Part shown: positions 57,474 through 63,731 of the stretch, in pieces
How positions within the stretch are numbered: the stretch's first letter is position 1
Layout of the letters: each line of letters begins with the position of its first letter
Origin: Bacteriovoracia bacterium
GTDB taxonomy: Bacteria > Bdellovibrionota > UBA1018 > JBFWNL01
DNA: 64,000 bases
Direction of reading: 5' to 3'
Assembly (NCBI GenBank): GCA_050251055.1
Contig: JBFWNL010000003.1
Coordinates: 32,001 to 96,000 of the forward strand
The notes under the pieces: generated by a model
What the model saw: only the letters and a program-made list of their open reading frames with translations
What the model was told of the DNA's origin: nothing
Databases searched by the model: none
Made by a program: the position numbers and the translations under genes

Positions 57474-57773
57474 ATGAAAAAAGTAATCTTCAATTTAATC
57501 GTCCTGATCAGTCTGGTTTCGAATTCGCTTGGCGTCGCGGAGTCACTCGCAACAGAAGAACCTACCGGCCTCTATTGTTGCACTTGCCTACTTCTCCAAG
57601 ACCATCCTCGCAAGGAGCCCATTTATTCGAACAACGTGATCGAAGTCGATCCCGGAGAAGACCCTGGAGCCGTGTGCAGTTCGCCACGGCCAGGATTTCT
57701 AAAGTGCTATCTTAGACCGAACCAATTTTGCGCGCCCCAGTTTGAACAGTGGTTTGGTAGCGTCCTGGATTAA
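57474..57773 (+). CDS. Small secreted Cys-rich protein
   Basis: GAAGGGG RBS; signal peptide; six Cys (CCTC..C..C..C); preceded by a very AT-rich tract. Confidence 0.65.
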   Translation: MKKVIFNLIVLISLVSNSLGVAESLATEEPTGLYCCTCLLLQDHPRKEPIYSNNVIEVDPGEDPGAVCSSPRPGFLKCYLRPNQFCAPQFEQWFGSVLD

Positions 57774-57781
57774 GACTCTAC

Positions 57782-57831
57782 CTCTCTCGAAAAGAGCGAT
57801 TTTTTTTGAGGAACCGCTCTTTTCGAGAGAG
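57782..57831. terminator. Long inverted repeat, probable terminator
   Basis: CTCTCTCGAAAAGAGCG / CGCTCTTTTCGAGAGAG, perfect 17-bp stem just after the stop codon. Confidence 0.6.
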
Positions 57832-57900
57832 AAATCAGATCCGAATTAATCACGAAAGATAACACGAGCCAAGCCATCGAATTCATTTTATACTTCGCTC

Positions 57901-58680
57901 ATGGCAAGACTTCCACGCATCGTCCTGGCAATTCTGGTCATTCCTTTTGGCGCCCCCACCGCCGCGCGAGCCGATCAAAACAGCGACTTACGAACCGCGA
58001 CGATCGAAAGCGTCGCCCGCAACCGCAAGGAGTGGGGCGTGGATCTGGAAGTCGGCACAAGCCTTCAACGCGGCAACGTCGACAAAAGCCTGGGCAAATT
58101 CACCACGTCGCTCTTCAAGGCCAACGACCCCTATTCGGTTTATCTCGATGGCGTCTACGCATTCGGAGCCGTGGGCGTCAAACGCTTCGAGAACCGCGCC
58201 ACGGGGACCTTGAGACTCGACTACCGCATGAGCCCCTTCTGGAAAATTTTCGTTTTCACGACGCATGGATTTAACGAATTCCAAAAGCTCGCCTACCGTG
58301 GCTCGATGGGAGCCGGGCCCTGGGTGGATTTCGAAGTGGGCGGCACGAAGCACGGCGTGAGCGCCGCCGTAAGCCACGAGTTCGAGCAGTTTTACGGTTT
58401 CGCCGCGGAAAGAACCGCTCGCGGTTCGCTCCGCTATCTCTTCTTCGTGCCGATCTCCGAAAACGCGGGGGCCGGCTTCGACTTCTTTTACTGTCCCAGC
58501 TTGGGCGACTTCGCTGACCACCACCTCTACTGGGCGCCTTTTTTGGAAGCGAAGGTGATCGATCAGTGGATGACGATGAAGCTTTCGGTATCCATCGAGC
58601 GAGATTCGCGACCCAAACCCGGCGTCTTCGCGAACGACACCCAGACGATGGTGTCGATTGGATTTCATGGCGGAAAGTAA
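57901..58680 (+). CDS. DUF481-like outer-membrane beta-barrel protein
   Basis: Signal peptide; QRGNVD, beta strands, DSRPKPGV..DT C-terminal pattern. Confidence 0.75.
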   Translation: MARLPRIVLAILVIPFGAPTAARADQNSDLRTATIESVARNRKEWGVDLEVGTSLQRGNVDKSLGKFTTSLFKANDPYSVYLDGVYAFGAVGVKRFENRATGTLRLDYRMSPFWKIFVFTTHGFNEFQKLAYRGSMGAGPWVDFEVGGTKHGVSAAVSHEFEQFYGFAAERTARGSLRYLFFVPISENAGAGFDFFYCPSLGDFADHHLYWAPFLEAKVIDQWMTMKLSVSIERDSRPKPGVFANDTQTMVSIGFHGGK

Positions 58681-58698
58681 CTCAGGCTGACGCTCAAA

Positions 58699-59100
58699 AT
58701 GACCAACGACACGCACAGCAAAACGATTGGCTACCTGGTTTGGATCTTCGGGTTTTTCGGCGCCCATCGGTTTTACTACGGCAAGCAAATCACGGGCGCG
58801 ATTTGGTTTTTCACGTTAGGCTTGCTGGGCATTGGCTGGCTCGTCGACTTATTTTTAATCCCGGGCATGGATCGCGAAGCGGACTTCAAGTATCGAGCCG
58901 GTCCCTTGAACTATTCGGTGGCTTGGCTGCTTTTAGTCTATCTGGGCGTCTTCGGCTTCCACCGCTTCTACCTGGGCAAGTGGATGACCGGCCTGCTTTA
59001 TCTGGTGACCCTCGGTTTCTTTGGAATCGGCGTGCTTTTCGATTATTGCACGCTTAACGGCCAGGTGGATGAAATCAACACGTTGAGCGGGGCGAACTGA
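58699..59100 (+). CDS. TM2 (NINE) domain protein, two domains
   Basis: GAHRFYYGK and GFHRFYLGK repeats. Confidence 0.9.
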   Translation: MTNDTHSKTIGYLVWIFGFFGAHRFYYGKQITGAIWFFTLGLLGIGWLVDLFLIPGMDREADFKYRAGPLNYSVAWLLLVYLGVFGFHRFYLGKWMTGLLYLVTLGFFGIGVLFDYCTLNGQVDEINTLSGAN

Positions 59101-59216
59101 AATTCATAAACGAATGCTCTAAATTCGTAGGTAGCTAACGGTTCCTAATTTCTACTGAAACGGTGGGCGCACTCATCCACCAACTATATCCAAAAAAAAC
59201 TGCAGCAACTACACCT

Positions 59217-59562
59217 GGACTCGGCTTCCGCTCTCAGCGCTACTCGCGCTTCGGCTGCAGCTCGGGCTCTTTCGCGGCCCGCAAGCGGGCGCCCCGCTCA
59301 GTCCGCCGTTCGAGTCCCGTCTTAAAGTACGAAACGCCACGCGTTTCACTAATTATAAACCCGCCACTTTTTCAAATCAGCCCGAGAGCTTCCGGGCATC
59401 GTTTCCCTCTCTCGAAATATTTTCCTGAGGGGGATACCACGCGTCAGGATGACGCGCGCGCAGCGGCGTGACAGGGCAGGAGCCCGACCCCCTCAGGAAA
59501 ATATTTCGAGAGAGGGAAACGGTGCAGGGAATATTTTAGTGCTGATTTGAAAAAGTGGCGGG
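59217..59562. repeat. Structured element copy 1 (~346 bp)
   Basis: Direct repeat of 60196-60543; perfect 22-bp (59360-59381/59541-59562) and 34-bp (59400-59433/59488-59521) stems. Confidence 0.92.
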
Positions 59563-59643
59563 CCAAATGGGACGAGTATCGAACTTGGTACTGGTCGCAA
59601 GCTGCCTAGTTTGTGGCCAACAGTTGACCGCAAAACGAGGGGT

Positions 59644-59940
59644 TCACTTAGCAGTATCAATAATGCAAAGTCCGGTAGCAATAGCGACTTTGATTCTTAC
59701 GTTCGGAATATTACGTTCTTCTATCGAAAGCTCAGGTGCAAAGTGGGATGCAAGTTTCCCATTTTTTTCACGGCATTTGTCTTCAAGTTTTCCCTTAACT
59801 GCCACATCCATTGATTCAGGTCTAGGTGCCGACCCAACAGATAGCCAATGAGCAGAAATAGGCTCCAGAAGCTCTTCAGCGTGTAAAACTTTTGCTTGTA
59901 GAGTCATGAACAAAACTATCGCGAATGTAGCTAATTTCAT
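59644..59940 (-). CDS. Small secreted hypothetical protein (cassette cargo)
   Basis: GAGG RBS; MKLATFAIVLFMTLQAKVLHA signal peptide; two Cys; AT-rich codons. Confidence 0.65.
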   Translation of the reverse strand: MKLATFAIVLFMTLQAKVLHAEELLEPISAHWLSVGSAPRPESMDVAVKGKLEDKCREKNGKLASHFAPELSIEERNIPNVRIKVAIATGLCIIDTAK

Positions 59941-60062
59941 TTTTTCCTCGCATGCAAATCCATTTAACACCGTGCGTCAAAAAAGTAAATATCTTTTATA
60001 TGCTATGGGCTAGTTCTCTATTTTTGGGCCGTAAGAGCCAAAACGATTGATTATCCGAACGG

Positions 60063-60088
60063 GTGTCTAACGTCAGGGGCGCAGTCTA
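60063..60088. mobile_element. Solo IS3-family-like terminal inverted repeat remnant
   Basis: Minus strand reads TAGACTGCGCCCCTGACGTTAGACAC, resembling IS2/IS150-type ends; no transposase nearby. Confidence 0.4.
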
Positions 60089-60195
60089 ATCCCAATGCAT
60101 TCCGGTTAGAGCTTGGACACAATCAGCCAAGTTACTAGAGTTTTTCTGGATTCGCTTACCACGAACAGAACAAAACTCCACTTTTACCCAAACTA

Positions 60196-60543
60196 GGACT
60201 CGCCTTCCGCTCTCGGCGCTACCCGCGCCTCGGCTGCAGGCCGGGCTCAGGGCCCACCCGCAAGCGGGTACCCGGGCCCTTCCGCCTTTCTTGTCCCGTC
60301 TTCAGGTACGAAACGCTAGCGCGTTTCATTCATTATAAACCCGCCACTTTTTAATAACCGCTCGAGTAATTTCGGACCCAGTTTAACTTTCAGGAAAATA
60401 TATCCCCGAGGGGGATAACACGCGTCAGGAAGACGCGCGCGCAGCGGCGTGAAAGGGCAGGAGCCCGACCCCCTCGGGGATATATTTTCCTGAAAGTTAA
60501 ACTGGGTTGGGAAAACTTGGTGCGGTTATTAAAAAGTGGCGGG
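60196..60543. repeat. Structured element copy 2 (~348 bp), overlapping the tRNA 3' end
   Basis: Perfect 22-bp (60340-60361/60522-60543) and 39-bp (60376-60414/60469-60507) stems; central 54 nt differ from copy 1 at 3 positions. Confidence 0.92.
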
Positions 60544-60613
60544 AGAGACGGGACTCGAACCCGCGACCTTCGCCGTGACAGGGCGACGTTGTAACCAACT
60601 CAACTACTCCCCC
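60537..60613 (-). tRNA. tRNA-Asp (GUC)
   Basis: GGGGGAGTAGTTGAGTTGGTTACAACGTCGCCCTGTCACGGCGAAGGTCGCGGGTTCGAGTCCCGTCTCTCCCGCCA; 77 nt, cloverleaf, encoded CCA. Confidence 0.97.
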
Positions 60614-60875
60614 GGTAAAATGAAGTAGAATTCTCTGTGGTTAGATCCCTATGGCTATTCTCGTTGCTCCGCAAAGTCAACCGGCCAGTGAGCCCGCGCC
60701 TCACAAATCCAGCGCCGCTTCGGGAAATCCCTCTCCTTCCACCCTGCCTAGGCACACCGGTAACATTTTGATATCACTCTATTTTTTCGGCTCTACCCGT
60801 CCCAAAGACTTTGACAGGCGAAACCTTTTCTGAGAATGGATCGCCACCGTTTCATTTTCCAGAGGGGGAAAATTT

Positions 60876-62237
60876 ATGCGCGCTTGGCGAATTCTCGCGG
60901 CGACTTTTTGCACGCTCACGATCCATCTGTCCGCTTACCCGGCCTACGGGAACCCACCCATCGACTTTTCGAATCGAGCCGCGGTGGCGCAATGGCTGGA
61001 CCTGGGTATCGAACAAGGACAGTATCGCGGCGTCGGCTCCACGCTTGAGAATTCAGTCGCGATCGCGGTCCACCAAAAAATCCTATCCGGAGAATCGCCT
61101 TGGAAAGTGGAGGCCGTCGTGAACTACCATCCCATCACGGGCGAAGCCTGGCCGGTGACGGTAAAGGACGTACAAATCTCCCAGTCGCCAGAAACGTTCC
61201 AGAAGGTGGCGGTCAGCGCGACGCTTTTCCTGAGCAAAAAAAGTGACCCCAAAGCACGCCTGGTCGCCGGCGTGAGCGCCGAACGATTTAGCGTCCAGTA
61301 CAATAGCGGCATCGAGGGGCGCAAGGCCGACGCGATCGAGCTCGAAAAATACGTACAGGAAGAAATCACCACGCGATCTCTCTACCGCCGCCGCGCGGTC
61401 GAAATGAAGGAAACCGGCACCATCGGCTTCGTGCCCGGGATCCGCAGTTACAACTACAATTGGGATTCCATTATTCTAGAAAGTGGGCTGAAGCAAAAGC
61501 TCCGCTCCACCGTGGAAGATTTCATTAACCATTACGACTACGCCCGCTGGAAGGAACTGGGCCTGCCCATGAACCGAGGCATCCTGCTCGACGGCCCGCC
61601 CGGCACGGGCAAGAGCATGGTCGCGAAAGTCATCCTCTCGAACGTCGTACAGAAGGTGTACAAAAAGGAAGTCACCTATATTTACGTGGTCGCCCGGCAC
61701 ATCATCAATAAGGAAGCCGTGAAGAACATCTTCGCGGCGGCCCGCCTGCTGAATCCAGCCGTAGTTTTTATCGAGGACATCGACCTCATCGCCGGCACCG
61801 ACCGCAAGGACCGCATGGACGTAAAGAACGAGCTCATGCAGCAGTTAAGCGGCATCCAGGAACTCAACGGCGTGCTCACGATCGGCACCACCAACGTCGG
61901 CGCGCGCATCGACGACGCGCTTAAGCGGTCGAAACGCCTAGGTTTTCAATTCACGATCGGCGCGCCCGCCATGGCCGAGCGCGTGGCCTTGTTCACGGTA
62001 TTCACGAACAAGCTCGCGCACGAAGACTTGGATTTCCGGGCCTACGGCGATCAAAGCGAAGGCATGACCGGGGCGGACATCCAGGAGCTGATCGACGTAG
62101 CCACCGAACGGGCCATGCGTCAGGGATCTTTTAAGGATCCCGGCCAAGGAGATGGCAAGCGTCGCGTATTACTGAAGGACGAGCACCTGCGGTACGCATT
62201 CGCGCTCCGTAAAACCACGCGCATTCCTGGAAAGTAA
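60876..62237 (+). CDS. AAA+ ATPase (classic clade) with signal-peptide-like N-terminus
   Basis: GPPGTGKS Walker A, VVFIEDID Walker B, TTN..IDDALKRSKRL second region of homology. Confidence 0.88.
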   Translation: MRAWRILAATFCTLTIHLSAYPAYGNPPIDFSNRAAVAQWLDLGIEQGQYRGVGSTLENSVAIAVHQKILSGESPWKVEAVVNYHPITGEAWPVTVKDVQISQSPETFQKVAVSATLFLSKKSDPKARLVAGVSAERFSVQYNSGIEGRKADAIELEKYVQEEITTRSLYRRRAVEMKETGTIGFVPGIRSYNYNWDSIILESGLKQKLRSTVEDFINHYDYARWKELGLPMNRGILLDGPPGTGKSMVAKVILSNVVQKVYKKEVTYIYVVARHIINKEAVKNIFAAARLLNPAVVFIEDIDLIAGTDRKDRMDVKNELMQQLSGIQELNGVLTIGTTNVGARIDDALKRSKRLGFQFTIGAPAMAERVALFTVFTNKLAHEDLDFRAYGDQSEGMTGADIQELIDVATERAMRQGSFKDPGQGDGKRRVLLKDEHLRYAFALRKTTRIPGK

Positions 62238-62249
62238 GGGGCAAAGCAT

Positions 62250-63731
62250 ATGAAAAAGTATTTGATGACCATCCTACTCACGTGCCTAGCCGTCACCTTC
62301 ACCTCCACGGCCACCGAAGATGACCCACTCTTCCGCCAGCTTTCGCCGGCGCTGAAGTATTGGCTCCAGGAAAACCCGCTCATCCCCACCGAGATGACGC
62401 TGGATATGTCCTTCCAAAACTATAAGCAGCTGCATGCCTTCGCGCTCGACCGCATCCTCAGCCGCGACGGTTCCGATTGGAAGATCTACAAGGTGAAAAA
62501 CTACGATTCCATGGGGAACGAGTCCCCCGTGGGTTACGCCGAGCTGCCCGTGAATTCCAAAGGCGAAAACCGCGAGATCCTAACGGACGGCTACTACTTC
62601 GCCTATAAGGGCGATCCGAAGACCGGCCCCCGGATCGTGGTGCAACCCACGCAGCGTTACGAATACTACGTTTCGGACCAATACTTCATGATGAAGGACG
62701 CGGTCGAGATTTACTATGCCAAGCGATGGGAAACCGAGGCCCGCGAGTTCAAGGCGCTCCTGGCCCGCGAGCTGAACGAGCGCAATCTCTTCCGCAATTC
62801 CGTGCTGGAGTTCACCACGAGCGACGCCAGCCCGAACTTCAAATCGTTCGCGCTCACTTTCATGGATCACGTGGAGGACATGAAGATCGATTGGAAAGAC
62901 CTCATACTGCCCAAAGACTTCCACCAGATGCTGTACGAGAACACCGAGGGTTTTCTTCAGCTCAACGCTCAATACCGGGAGCACGGCCTGAAGCAGAAAA
63001 AAGGCCTGCTGCTGTACGGTCCTCCGGGCAACGGCAAGAGCCTGGTCGCGCAGACGCTGATCTCGTCGATGTACCAAGGCAAGCTCAAGGACCAAGTAAC
63101 GATGATCGTGGTCACCGCGCGGCATCTTTCGTTCCGCCACGCCGTCAAGGCGCTCTTTGAAGAAGCCGCTCGCCTAGCTCCTTGCGTGATCTTCATGGAG
63201 GACATCGATCTATTGGGTATCAAATCGCGGGATGGCCAGGCAGATAACTCCGCCAAGCAAGCCGAAGTGCTCAACGAGTTCTTGAACGCGATGGATGGCG
63301 TGGTCGACACGAGTGGCCTGCTCATGATCGGCACTACCAACAAAGTCGACGCCATGGATAGCGCGTTGACCCGTTCGGCCCGCTTGGGCATGCACCTCTA
63401 CTTCGAAAACCCCCGCTACCCGGAGCGCAAGGAGTTTTTCCTACGCCTGGGCACGAAGAAAGCCGTGTGGGCGGAGGATGTGACCGCCGAATGGCTGGCG
63501 GGTGAAACCGAAAACCTCGGCGGCGCCGATATCGTGGAGATTATCTCCATCGCCAAGCAAAACGCGTTGCTTGCGGGCTCCTACGCGGGCGAGAAGCTCC
63601 TGCTCACGAAGGCGTTCTTCGCCGATGCGATCGCGCAGATTCGCCGGGATCACGGCCGCCGGGACGATGACCGCGAAGATCTGCTTCCCGAAGCGCTCCG
63701 CAACCTCCACACCCTGGAGGCGACCTTCTAA
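62250..63731 (+). CDS. AAA+ ATPase (classic clade) with signal-peptide-like N-terminus
   Basis: GPPGNGKS, VIFMEDID, TTN..MDSALTRSARL. Confidence 0.88.
   Translation: MKKYLMTILLTCLAVTFTSTATEDDPLFRQLSPALKYWLQENPLIPTEMTLDMSFQNYKQLHAFALDRILSRDGSDWKIYKVKNYDSMGNESPVGYAELPVNSKGENREILTDGYYFAYKGDPKTGPRIVVQPTQRYEYYVSDQYFMMKDAVEIYYAKRWETEAREFKALLARELNERNLFRNSVLEFTTSDASPNFKSFALTFMDHVEDMKIDWKDLILPKDFHQMLYENTEGFLQLNAQYREHGLKQKKGLLLYGPPGNGKSLVAQTLISSMYQGKLKDQVTMIVVTARHLSFRHAVKALFEEAARLAPCVIFMEDIDLLGIKSRDGQADNSAKQAEVLNEFLNAMDGVVDTSGLLMIGTTNKVDAMDSALTRSARLGMHLYFENPRYPERKEFFLRLGTKKAVWAEDVTAEWLAGETENLGGADIVEIISIAKQNALLAGSYAGEKLLLTKAFFADAIAQIRRDHGRRDDDREDLLPEALRNLHTLEATF

What the first reader, a model, noticed from the sequence alone, without database searches (positions are those of the whole stretch)
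59217..60613. tRNA-Asp-anchored, integrase-less cassette system built from large folded repeat elements
Seen: the order on + is [element 1]-AAAAAGTGGCGGG-[degenerate tRNA-end sequence, one AT-rich gene, element 2]-AAAAAGTGGCGGG-[rest of tRNA-Asp]. TGGCGGG is the complement of the tRNA's last 7 nt. Removing 59563-60543 would leave element 1 joined to an intact tRNA exactly as element 2 is now. Established: tRNA 3' ends are common integration sites, and integron attC and CTXphi attP recombine as folded ssDNA. Inference: each unit (cargo gene plus ~347-bp folded element) is a ~1-kb mobile cassette added at the tRNA-proximal end by a recombinase acting in trans, giving an integron-like array that uses a tRNA as the insertion site.
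Basis: partly seen in the sequence, partly recalled or inferred. Interest (0 to 1): 0.9.

Follow-up and report, generated by a model that had tools for sequence, protein, structure and literature searches.

The report
Structured mobile elements tailing tRNA genes
The two repeats beside tRNA-Asp belong to an apparently undescribed family of small folded DNA elements that sit just after tRNA genes in predatory-type bacteria (Bdellovibrionota), each copy carrying forward and reversed copies of the end of its own tRNA.

Summary
Two copies of a ~345-nt element lie 980 nt apart. One abuts tRNA-Asp and the other abuts a decayed tRNA-Asp 3' fragment.

The integron-like reading is only partly right. 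The element belongs to a family that sits directly downstream of tRNA or tmRNA genes, in the same sense:
- 54 of 73 distinct copies do so, at 27 tRNA anticodon classes plus tmRNA.
- It occurs in 23 of 116 genomes of the order and 23 of 151 sampled from the phylum.

Read in the tRNA sense, each unit has this order:
- a hairpin;
- the complement of the tRNA's last ~7 nt;
- a small hairpin;
- the complement of the T-loop and T-stem;
- a conserved three-way junction (96.6% of cells paired, 36 of 39 pairs covarying);
- a direct repeat of the tRNA from C56 to its end.

These segments match the local tRNA. Most units carry no cargo. The AT-rich "cargo" here is a separate low-GC insert in a repeated tRNA end.

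The best reading is a non-autonomous, tRNA-end-specific mobile element whose enzyme acts in trans and is not identified. How the copies come to match each tRNA is unexplained. I found no match in Rfam and no description in the papers searched.

The parts
60537..60613 (-). tRNA-Asp(GTC) with encoded CCA. Its last ~21 nt (C56 to A76) are the sequence that the elements copy.
   Evidence: ARAGORN; Rfam tRNA, 69 bits.
60347..60536 (-). Proximal unit, long hairpin H. It starts right after CCA. Arms are 60347-60414 and 60469-60536; the tip is 60415-60468.
   Evidence: Inverted repeat I1, 75 nt, 88%; fold at -188.2 kcal/mol, z -11.1.
60340..60346 (-). Proximal unit, a': the complement of the tRNA's last 7 nt. 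It reads TGGCGGG in the tRNA sense.
60301..60339 (-). Proximal unit, linker, small hairpin (60310-60327) and linker. The first linker holds a TATAAT-like box.
   Evidence: Alignment A1 and its consensus fold.
60288..60300 (-). Proximal unit, t': the complement of the tRNA T-loop and T-stem 3' strand, with 2 mismatches.
   Evidence: (I10).
60202..60287 (-). Proximal unit, conserved three-way-junction domain.
   Evidence: Model R1 hit G000:C3:92180-92349, 160.8 bits; covariation.
60196..60201 (-). Proximal unit, the retained start of the direct repeat of the tRNA end (GAGTCC). It pairs with t'; the rest of the repeat is lost.
   Evidence: 7-nt repeat for L001/Asp.
59599..60195 (.). Low-GC insert between the two units. 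It holds an orphan ORF at 59644-59970 on the minus strand (98 aa from the ATG at 59940, with a signal-peptide-like start).
   Evidence: GC 0.40-0.455; no Pfam family; only itself found among 5.8 billion proteins.
59556..59598 (-). Decayed tRNA-Asp 3' half ending in CCCGCCA. It is the displaced end or att remnant in front of the distal unit.
   Evidence: Read; D6.
59367..59555 (-). Distal unit, long hairpin H.
   Evidence: Inverted repeats I2, I3.
59360..59366 (-). Distal unit, a' (TGGCGGG in the tRNA sense).
   Evidence: I3.
59322..59359 (-). Distal unit, linker, small hairpin (59331-59347) and linker.
59308..59321 (-). Distal unit, t': an exact complement of the tRNA-Asp T-loop and T-stem 3' strand.
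   Evidence: I5, 15 nt, 100%.
59223..59307 (-). Distal unit, three-way-junction domain.
   Evidence: R1 hit G000:C3:91201-91369, 162.3 bits.
59217..59222 (-). Distal unit, retained start of the direct repeat (GAGTCC).

Best explanation
The two 'large folded repeats' are two copies of a family of small (about 170-350 nt) non-coding elements specific to the 3' ends of tRNA and tmRNA genes in Bdellovibrionota.

Each unit follows the tRNA in the same sense. It is built as: hairpin H; a', the complement of the last ~7 nt of the local tRNA; a linker, small hairpin and linker of 34-49 nt; t', the complement of the local T-loop and T-stem 3' strand; a conserved three-way junction; and a direct repeat of the local tRNA gene from C56 to its end.

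I read the units as non-autonomous mobile (integrative) elements. They enter at the tRNA end, duplicate it, and pile up in tandem. This is the signature of site-specific integration at the T-loop and of accretion. The enzyme would be supplied in trans.

The repeated tRNA ends then serve as landing sites for ordinary islands. In the window, two units flank a decayed ~0.6-kb low-GC island fragment that entered a repeated tRNA end.

Shown:
- the link to tRNA ends;
- the repeats and their match to the local tRNA;
- the fold and its covariation;
- the arrays;
- the patchy spread.

Inferred:
- mobility by recombination in trans;
- that the active form is a folded single strand on the tRNA-sense strand, whose 5' and 3' ends meet on an internal splint;
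- that the inverted copies are kept matched to the tRNA by templated correction of imperfect palindromes plus selection on the tRNA.
For: Location:
- In G000 the module is found only beside tRNA genes (7 of 7 loci; 10 hits).
- Across all loci, 54 of 73 distinct copies have a same-sense tRNA or tmRNA ending less than 400 nt upstream. They cover 27 anticodon classes plus tmRNA. Five of the other 19 are too near a locus start to tell.

Direct repeat:
- It is exact over 17 nt or more in 34 of 54 copies. It starts at C56 in 27 of those 34 and ends within 3 nt of the gene's end in 23 of 34.
- In L054 the tRNA gene has no CCA and neither has the repeat, so the copy was made from DNA.

Match to the local tRNA:
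- t': 8.28 of 9 against 5.90 for other tRNAs.
- a': 6.09 of 7 against 4.66.
- Repeat: 15.9 of 19 against 10.3.
- The geometry is fixed.

Fold:
- 96.6% of cells are paired and 36 of 39 pairs show changes on both sides. Slid controls pair 39-44%.
- G-U outnumbers A-C by 42 to 19 on the tRNA-sense strand.
- The minimal unit folds with its two ends abutting.

Mobility:
- The family is patchy: 23 of 116 and 23 of 151 genomes.
- One unit sits inside the Thr-Tyr-Gly-Thr tRNA cluster in G025 but not in G000.
- Tandem and partial units occur.
- Copies cluster by genome, not by tRNA type (0.76 against 0.64).

Islands at the repeats: L063 and L064, the latter with an integrase remnant. Integrase genes lie just upstream of 4 distal units.

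Against: - No recombinase is tied to the elements. The integrase family found next to distal units is in 9 of 23 genomes with the element and in 46 of 93 without it (my comparison of the lists).
- G000 has 10 copies and is 93.5% complete. Yet it shows no RVT_1, IS110, Y1_Tnp, TnpB or RtcB match.
- No circle junction or empty site was seen, but that call laid contigs only.
- Ordinary integration does not explain the inverted copies, or how one family comes to match 27 different tRNA classes.
- When the repeat decays, the 6-10 nt that pair with t' persist (18 of 54). That points to selection on the fold itself and fits a host RNA equally well.
- All copies come from metagenome-assembled genomes. 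Nothing has been tested at the bench.
Confidence: 0.45

Rival explanations
1. Host RNA gene family. The unit is a structured RNA made by read-through from the tRNA promoter, a functional tRNA trailer. Its closing helix is built from a copy of the tRNA end. It spreads by local duplication and gene conversion rather than transposition. Its role would be in tRNA processing or regulation, or as a small RNA.
For: - It is always in the tRNA sense and directly downstream.
- It sits between co-oriented tRNA genes in likely operons: Tyr-unit-Gly in L012 and Arg-unit-His in L054.
- Covariation is strong, and G-U outnumbers A-C on that strand.
- The stem loops read CUUG and, in some copies, GAAA in the tRNA sense (by eye).
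- The pairing part of the repeat is kept after the rest decays.
- The family is conserved across the phylum, including 7 of 9 and 3 of 3 genomes in two families of small genomes.
- Similarity within a genome fits gene conversion.
Against: - Exact 17-21-nt repeats include 1-3 nt that pair with nothing. That is not expected from selection on an RNA helix alone.
- Tandem and truncated units occur.
- Presence is patchy across genomes and across tRNAs.
- Distal units cut off from the tRNA by 3-kb islands are as intact as proximal ones, 145 against 157 bits and 102 against 105 bits.
Confidence: 0.25
2. A single-strand replicon or retro-type element. The unit is the integrated form of a tiny rod or dumbbell single strand (RNA or DNA) copied by rolling-circle or rolling-hairpin synthesis. 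The inverted copy of the tRNA end acts like a primer-binding site. The nicked tRNA gene end primes the copying, which would rewrite the matching segments at each insertion.
For: - The array reads as alternating inverted copies of one arm (the tRNA end plus the first half of H), joined by two different turn-around structures, the H tip and the three-way junction.
- The monomer folds with its ends abutting on a splint.
- Arrays end in partial units.
- The segments match each tRNA.
- From memory: the primer-binding sites of retroviruses are re-copied from the primer tRNA.
Against: - G000 has no reverse transcriptase, Y1 HUH enzyme or RtcB match.
- The pattern found nothing in viral contigs (0 stretches) and no small circular contig among the 24 metagenome stretches.
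- The repeat lacks CCA where the gene lacks it, so mature tRNA is not the source.
- The inverted copy is always split by a 34-49-nt insert, which simple copy-back would not give.
Confidence: 0.1
3. One reading: an integron-like cassette array. Each cassette is a cargo gene plus a folded attC-like element, added at the tRNA-proximal end by an integrase acting in trans.
For: - Arrays lie at the tRNA end.
- The elements have a conserved structure and variable sequence.
- The hairpin formed by the tRNA end, H and a' is a palindrome of variable length with conserved CCA/TGG bases at its foot.
- Cargo lies between units in the window and in L063 and L064.
Against: - Most units carry no cargo.
- Cargo is bounded by its own pair of tRNA-end repeats and in L064 has its own integrase remnant.
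- G000 has no integron integrase.
- The window's cargo ORF is an orphan.
Confidence: 0.08
4. Passive scars. The units are decayed attL/attR remnants of ordinary islands, or palindromes made by template switching at tRNA terminators, with no function of their own.
For: - Several unrelated short elements are also bracketed by tRNA-end repeats in G000: at Cys, at Pro-ggg, and one between an integrase gene and a tRNA-Met end copy.
- Decayed units are common.
Against: - An ~85-nt three-way junction is conserved across the phylum, with 36 of 39 covarying pairs. That shows selection on the fold.
- The geometry of a' and t' is fixed.
Confidence: 0.07

Closest known systems
tRNA/tmRNA-targeted genomic islands, cis-mobilizable elements (CIMEs) and tandem accretion. 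Sources: Islander, PMC4383910 (abstract); IME review, PMC5704250 (passage); Dehalococcoides ssrA islands, PMC3146451 (passages).
   Same: The target is the 3' part of a tRNA or tmRNA gene. A direct repeat of about 20 nt runs from the T-loop to the gene's end. The elements form tandem arrays. Some lack any integrase yet keep both repeat ends. A conserved motif lies just upstream of the repeat.
   Different: The units are only 170-350 nt and carry no genes. They hold a conserved, covarying three-way junction. They also hold a split inverted copy of the attachment sequence. One family serves 27 tRNA classes plus tmRNA, each copy matched to its own tRNA. No linked integrase was found.
Integron attC sites and cassettes (features recalled from memory).
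   Same: The structure is conserved while the sequence varies. It folds as a single strand. Arrays grow at one anchored site.
   Different: There is no integron integrase. I saw no GTTRRRY core at the junctions. Most units lack cargo. The anchor is a tRNA gene end, and the arms copy that end.
CTX phage-type integration of folded single-stranded DNA at dif, i.e. IMEX elements (recalled from memory).
   Same: Two inverted copies of the target site, about 100 nt apart, could fold into a duplex that mimics the chromosomal target. Tandem arrays form at the target.
   Different: The target is any of many tRNA ends rather than one dif site. There are no phage genes. A role for Xer was not tested.
IS200/IS605 elements and their gene-less derivatives (PATEs, REPs), whose DNA guide sequences beside hairpins pick the cleavage sites (recalled from memory).
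   Same: A small hairpin is flanked by sequences complementary to the target and to the element's own end. Insertion is directly 3' of the target sequence. The logic is single-stranded.
   Different: G000 has no Y1 transposase or TnpB. The repeat is about 21 nt, whereas those elements make none. The guide-like segments differ from copy to copy.
Primer-binding sites of LTR retroelements (recalled from memory).
   Same: A sequence is complementary to the 3' end of a tRNA, including CCA.
   Different: It is split by a 34-49-nt insert. It matches whichever tRNA gene lies next to it. G000 has no reverse transcriptase. The copy follows the gene, not the mature tRNA.

Membership tests
Integron (cassette array with attC sites) | Integron integrase gene (IntI) in the genome or locus | tested here: not met
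   TIGR02249 in G000: best 77.4 bits against a cut-off of 265. No integrase lies within 57500-62500.
Integron (cassette array with attC sites) | Each cassette is one promoterless gene plus one attC | tested here: not met
   Most units have no gene between them and the tRNA or the next unit.
Integron (cassette array with attC sites) | Folded imperfect palindrome with conserved structure and variable sequence | tested here: met
   Hairpin H and the covarying junction.
tRNA-targeted integrative element / CIME | Direct repeat of the tRNA 3' part at both ends, with the tRNA gene kept whole | tested here: met
   Exact repeat of 17 nt or more in 34 of 54, starting at C56 in 27 of 34.
tRNA-targeted integrative element / CIME | Integrase in the element (autonomous form), or a cognate integrase elsewhere that acts on its ends (CIME) | tested here: inconclusive
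   No integrase lies in the units. G000 has 8 tyrosine and 2 serine recombinases. The one integrase family tested does not co-occur with the units.
tRNA-targeted integrative element / CIME | Excision to a circle and reintegration | not testable with these tools
   Only assembled contigs of DNA runs could be laid, and they showed no alternative joints.
IS200/IS605 derivatives (PATE/REP) | Y1 HUH transposase (TnpA or RAYT) in the genome | tested here: not met
   PF01797 gives 0 matches in G000 but is present in 79 of 116 genomes of the order. TnpB gives 0.
MITE (DDE-type) | Conserved terminal inverted repeats and a short fixed target duplication at dispersed sites | tested here: not met
   The ends are copies of the local tRNA, the repeat is about 21 nt, and sites are restricted to tRNA/tmRNA ends.
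Retroelement | Reverse transcriptase available | tested here: not met
   PF00078 gives 0 matches in G000, which is 93.5% complete.
IS110-type element with bridge RNA | DEDD transposase | tested here: not met
   PF01548 gives 0 matches in G000.
Any Rfam 15 RNA family | Match at or above the gathering score | tested here: not met
   Only tRNA passes in 58500-61200. The other matches score 10.6-30.5 bits against cut-offs of 48-80.

The most novel reading that the evidence does not exclude
The units are a new class of enzyme-less mobile element that retargets itself. Its active form would be a folded single strand, a dumbbell or rod whose stem is a copy of the end of whichever tRNA gene it lies beside. 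Its direct and inverted tRNA-end segments would be re-templated from the target at or after each insertion. One element family could then colonise any tRNA or tmRNA gene without harming it. The three-way junction would be the part recognised by a host or helper enzyme, or it might be catalytic itself.
Probability: 0.2. Interest if true: 0.9.

Novelty: new variant of a known kind. Interest (0 to 1): 0.8.

Why it matters
tRNA gene ends are the classic landing sites for islands and prophages. The usual picture is that each element carries one fixed copy of one tRNA end.

Here a single small family sits behind at least 27 tRNA classes plus tmRNA. Each copy holds forward and reversed copies of its own tRNA's end, arranged around a conserved covarying fold.

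If the segments are re-templated from the target, this would be a new way for mobile DNA to choose and change its target. If the fold is an RNA, it is a new phylum-wide RNA class made from tRNA transcripts.

In either case the units multiply the attachment sites at tRNA genes, and so shape where islands accumulate in these genomes.

The covariance model and the fixed geometry make the question directly testable. Transcript mapping, junction PCR and recombination assays would each decide between the readings.

Tried and rejected
Expression. The look-up of sequencing runs listed no RNA holder. It listed three DNA runs from one study.

Excision. Read laying on those runs, which are kept as contigs only, showed no joints, no empty site and no circle junction. 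The contigs simply break at the repeats. This says nothing either way.

Other collections. The 24-base pattern found 0 stretches in viral contigs. It found 24 stretches in metagenome contigs, all on contigs of 1 kb or more.

Enzymes looked for in G000, none found: RVT_1, IS110 DEDD, Y1_Tnp, TnpB and RtcB, and an integron integrase.

Integrase association. The integrase family next to four distal units is in 55 of 116 genomes of the order. By my comparison of the lists, that is 9 of 23 genomes with the element and 46 of 93 without. This shows no association.

Ideas considered and dropped:
- tmRNA or permuted tmRNA. ARAGORN finds the genome's tmRNA elsewhere.
- An intrinsic terminator. No consistent U-run follows the hairpin (by eye).
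- A promoter. A TATAAT-like box follows a' in some copies, but I saw no consistent -35 (by eye).
- tRNA-type-specific ancient lineages. Copies cluster by genome instead.

Cargo ORF. It has no Pfam family and no relatives.

Papers. Four searches found no description of such an element. Passages read in 10.64898/2026.10.21.760802 and PMC5217627 were not relevant. Supplementary files were not consulted. The cluster tables of the first paper could hold this family.

Full report
**Observation.** The window holds one tRNA gene, tRNA-Asp(GTC), at 60537-60613 on the minus strand. Two copies of a ~345-nt element lie at 59217-59562 and 60196-60543. The GC-rich part is 79% identical, the hairpin tip 90% and the outer arm 74%. 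Both copies end on the plus strand with AAAAAGTGGCGGG, and TGGCGGG is the complement of the tRNA's last 7 nt. Behind the first copy lie a decayed tRNA-Asp 3' half (59556-59598) and a low-GC stretch, GC 0.40-0.455 against 0.52-0.63 around it. That stretch holds one ORF with no Pfam family and no relative among 5.8 billion proteins.

**Anatomy.** The elements make sense when read on the minus strand, in the sense of the tRNA. The order after the tRNA's CCA is as follows:
- a long hairpin H;
- a', the complement of the last 7 nt of the tRNA;
- a linker with a TATAAT-like box;
- a small hairpin;
- a linker reading GTACCTTAC or similar;
- t', the complement of the tRNA's T-loop and T-stem 3' strand (exact over 15 nt in the distal copy, I5);
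- a GC-rich domain of about 85 nt;
- the start of a direct repeat of the tRNA end (GAGTCC).

**A family tied to tRNA ends.** In the window's genome (G000: 21 contigs, 93.5% complete, 45 tRNA genes and one tmRNA gene) the GC-rich module recurs next to tRNA genes. All 7 further loci examined held a tRNA. A covariance model finds 10 copies. They lie behind Asp (two copies), His, Arg-ACG (one full and one partial copy), Gln-TTG, Leu-CAG, Val-TAC, Ala-CGC and Leu-TAG. I pooled loci from related genomes, a pattern scan of 185,579 species genomes and a metagenome scan. This gave 89 matches, of which 73 are distinct. Of those 73, 54 have a tRNA or tmRNA gene in the same sense ending less than 400 nt upstream, at -6 to 205 nt from the start of the model. 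They cover 27 anticodon classes plus tmRNA. Five of the other 19 lie too near the start of their locus to tell, and the rest are distal units of arrays.

**Distribution.** The model hits 23 of 116 genomes of the order. It hits 6 of the 11 other families there, and none of 19 genomes in the family coded f11. It also hits 23 of 151 genomes sampled across the phylum. That sample includes two families of 1.2-2.0-Mb genomes, with hits in 7 of 9 and 3 of 3. The strict pattern gave 29 stretches. All are in records titled as Oligoflexia, Bdellovibrionales, Bdellovibrionia, Bacteriovoracaceae, 'Deltaproteobacteria' or unnamed bacterium MAGs, except one labelled WWE3. Viral contigs gave none.

**Fold.** An alignment of 27 copies gives a consensus of a small hairpin plus a three-way junction closed by a helix between t' and the start of the direct repeat. 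It has 39 pairs, 31 with compensatory changes. On 75 distinct rows, 96.6% of cells form standard pairs and 36 of 39 pairs show changes on both sides. With the partner slid by 1-3 columns only 39-44% pair. That alignment was fitted to the model, which favours it somewhat. Outside the closing helix, G-U pairs outnumber A-C by 42 to 19, so the folded strand is the tRNA-sense strand. A minimal unit (L016) folds as a 5' hairpin followed by a long closing helix. Its last base abuts its first base on an internal splint (-87.2 kcal/mol, z -3.8). Nothing in Rfam 15 matches.

**Segments copied from the local tRNA.** Across the 54 units with a tRNA, the scores against the unit's own tRNA and against tRNAs of other anticodons are:
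- t': 8.28 of 9 against 5.90;
- a': 6.09 of 7 against 4.66;
- direct repeat: 15.9 of 19 against 10.3, and perfect in 25 of 54.

The geometry is fixed. Among the 39 of 54 units with clean matches:
- a' starts at the tRNA's last base in 33;
- t' starts 9-11 nt from the tRNA's end in 33;
- 1-3 nt of the tRNA are skipped in 29;
- the insert between a' and t' is 34-49 nt in 38.

The direct repeat falls into two classes. It is exact over 17 nt or more in 34 of 54 units. Of those 34, it starts at C56 of the T-loop in 27. It ends within 3 nt of the gene's end in 23 and runs on into a second copy of H in 11. In 18 of 54 units it is 10 nt or less, and what remains is the part that pairs with t'. In L054 the tRNA gene has no encoded CCA and the repeat has none either. 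The copy was therefore made from the gene, not from mature tRNA.

**Arrays, islands and the window's 'cassette'.** Units occur in tandem, with the last one often partial: Arg-ACG in G000, and L016, L017, L024 and L081. In L063 and L064 about 3 kb of ordinary genes lies between two units. These genes include a LysR regulator, DUF3892, DUF6973 and a 179-aa C-terminal tyrosine-integrase fragment. The block is bounded by a full repeat of the tRNA end on one side and a short one on the other. Integrase genes of one family lie just upstream of four distal units. The simplest reading of the window is therefore two units in tandem at tRNA-Asp, with a decayed low-GC island fragment inserted into the repeated tRNA end between them. 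The 43-nt decayed tRNA half reaches beyond the unit's own repeat, as an island-borne att arm would. The order of the three events cannot be resolved.

**Is it mobile, and by what?** Several lines point to mobility:
- Presence is patchy across genomes and tRNAs.
- A unit plus a 109-aa ORF sits between tRNA-Tyr and tRNA-Gly in G025, where G000 has a 63-nt spacer.
- tRNA-Asp is identical in G002, G014, G015 and G005, but none of them carries this unit there. G005 has a different element with an unbroken 22-nt inverted copy of the tRNA end.
- The repeats are exact and the units form tandem arrays.
- Copies are more alike within a genome at different tRNAs (junction domain 0.76, n=38) than at the same tRNA in different genomes (0.64, n=20; background 0.66, n=683). 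This means spread within a genome, or gene conversion.

No enzyme was identified. G000 lacks matches to RVT_1, IS110, Y1_Tnp, TnpB, RtcB and the integron integrase. It has 8 tyrosine and 2 serine recombinases. The integrase family seen beside units shows no association with them: it is in 9 of 23 genomes with the element and 46 of 93 without. Contigs of the DNA runs holding the window show no alternative joints.

**Mechanism.** A repeat from the T-loop to the gene's end, tandem arrays and integrase-less members are the known marks of site-specific integration at tRNA/tmRNA genes and of accretion. The sources are PMC4383910 (abstract), PMC5704250 (passage) and PMC3146451 (passages describing a 20-bp repeat, insertion in the T-loop and a conserved motif upstream of the repeat). 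I therefore favour, at 0.45, a non-autonomous integrative element moved in trans.

That model does not explain two things: the split inverted copy, and how one family matches 27 tRNA classes. The array can be read as alternating inverted copies of one arm, joined by two turn-around structures. The monomer's ends also meet on a splint. Both features suggest a folded single-strand intermediate. A possible route to the matching, recalled from the literature on quasi-palindromes and not tested here, is templated correction of imperfect palindromes, with the tRNA arm held fixed by selection.

The main rival, at 0.25, is a host RNA made by read-through from the tRNA. It fits the strand bias, the operon contexts and the survival of the pairing part of the repeat. 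The two readings are not exclusive.

**Novelty and limits.** I found no match in Rfam and no description in four literature searches. Supplementary files were not seen. All copies come from metagenome-assembled genomes. Their recurrence in many independent assemblies argues against an assembly artefact. No expression data exist for this organism in the runs offered (see Tried and rejected).

Noticed in passing
G000 genome-wide (e.g. C1:126442, C4:53133, C8:63752); not in the window's two units: The motif GGGACGC[CG]CATCCA[TC]G[GC]GC occurs 13 times in the genome. All 13 are 33-68 nt downstream of a tRNA gene, in the tRNA sense, at the tip of a long hairpin. The hairpin's arms differ from locus to locus and reach into the tRNA's last bases. 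A similar tip is seen in L081.
   Followed up: partly
G000 C13:64260-64277 (behind tRNA-Lys-TTT) and L108 (G005, behind tRNA-Asp): A second element type has an unbroken 18-22-nt inverted copy of the local tRNA end, followed by a different GC-rich domain holding a GGACATGCC...GGCATGTCC hairpin.
   Followed up: partly
G000 C6:135588-135859 (behind tRNA-Pro-GGG), C2 behind tRNA-Pro-TGG, and C7:201575-201990: A third element type ends in CAGGATGG..TGAGTGA and is followed by an exact copy of a tRNA end (20 of 20 at Pro-GGG). The same element lies between a 428-aa tyrosine integrase gene and an 18-nt copy of a tRNA-Met end on C7.
   Followed up: partly
G000 C2:198330-198700: An orphan exact 21-nt tRNA-Ser 3' end has no tRNA gene in front of it. 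A tip-bearing hairpin follows, then two copies of another repeated motif (GACTTCCTTAGAGATGT...AAATCGAAC) that is also seen behind tRNA-Ser and tRNA-Val genes.
   Followed up: no
G000 C1:239284-239302 (behind tRNA-Cys): An exact 19-nt repeat of the tRNA-Cys end lies 135 nt downstream. Before it come a partial inverted copy of the T-loop region and a 57-nt GC-rich domain unrelated to the main family.
   Followed up: no
L054:2715-2820: Three tandem ~33-nt repeats (TTGTCATCCTGAGGGCGAAGCCCGAAGGATCTG) lie between a unit and the next tRNA gene, tRNA-His.
   Followed up: no
window 60876-62237 and 62250-63731 (+): Two adjacent paralogous AAA-ATPase genes (453 and 493 aa) have hydrophobic N-termini and lie just upstream of tRNA-Asp on the other strand.
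   Followed up: no
all units, small hairpin (window 59331-59347 and 60310-60327): The commonest core of the small hairpin is GCGAAGC or GCGGAGC. From memory, d(GCGAAGC) is an unusually stable DNA mini-hairpin. If so, this would hint at a single-stranded DNA form.
   Followed up: no
G000 C4:249855-250313: A large serine recombinase gene (open frame of 621 aa) lies close to the 3' side of tRNA-Ser-GCT at C4:251491-251581.
   Followed up: no
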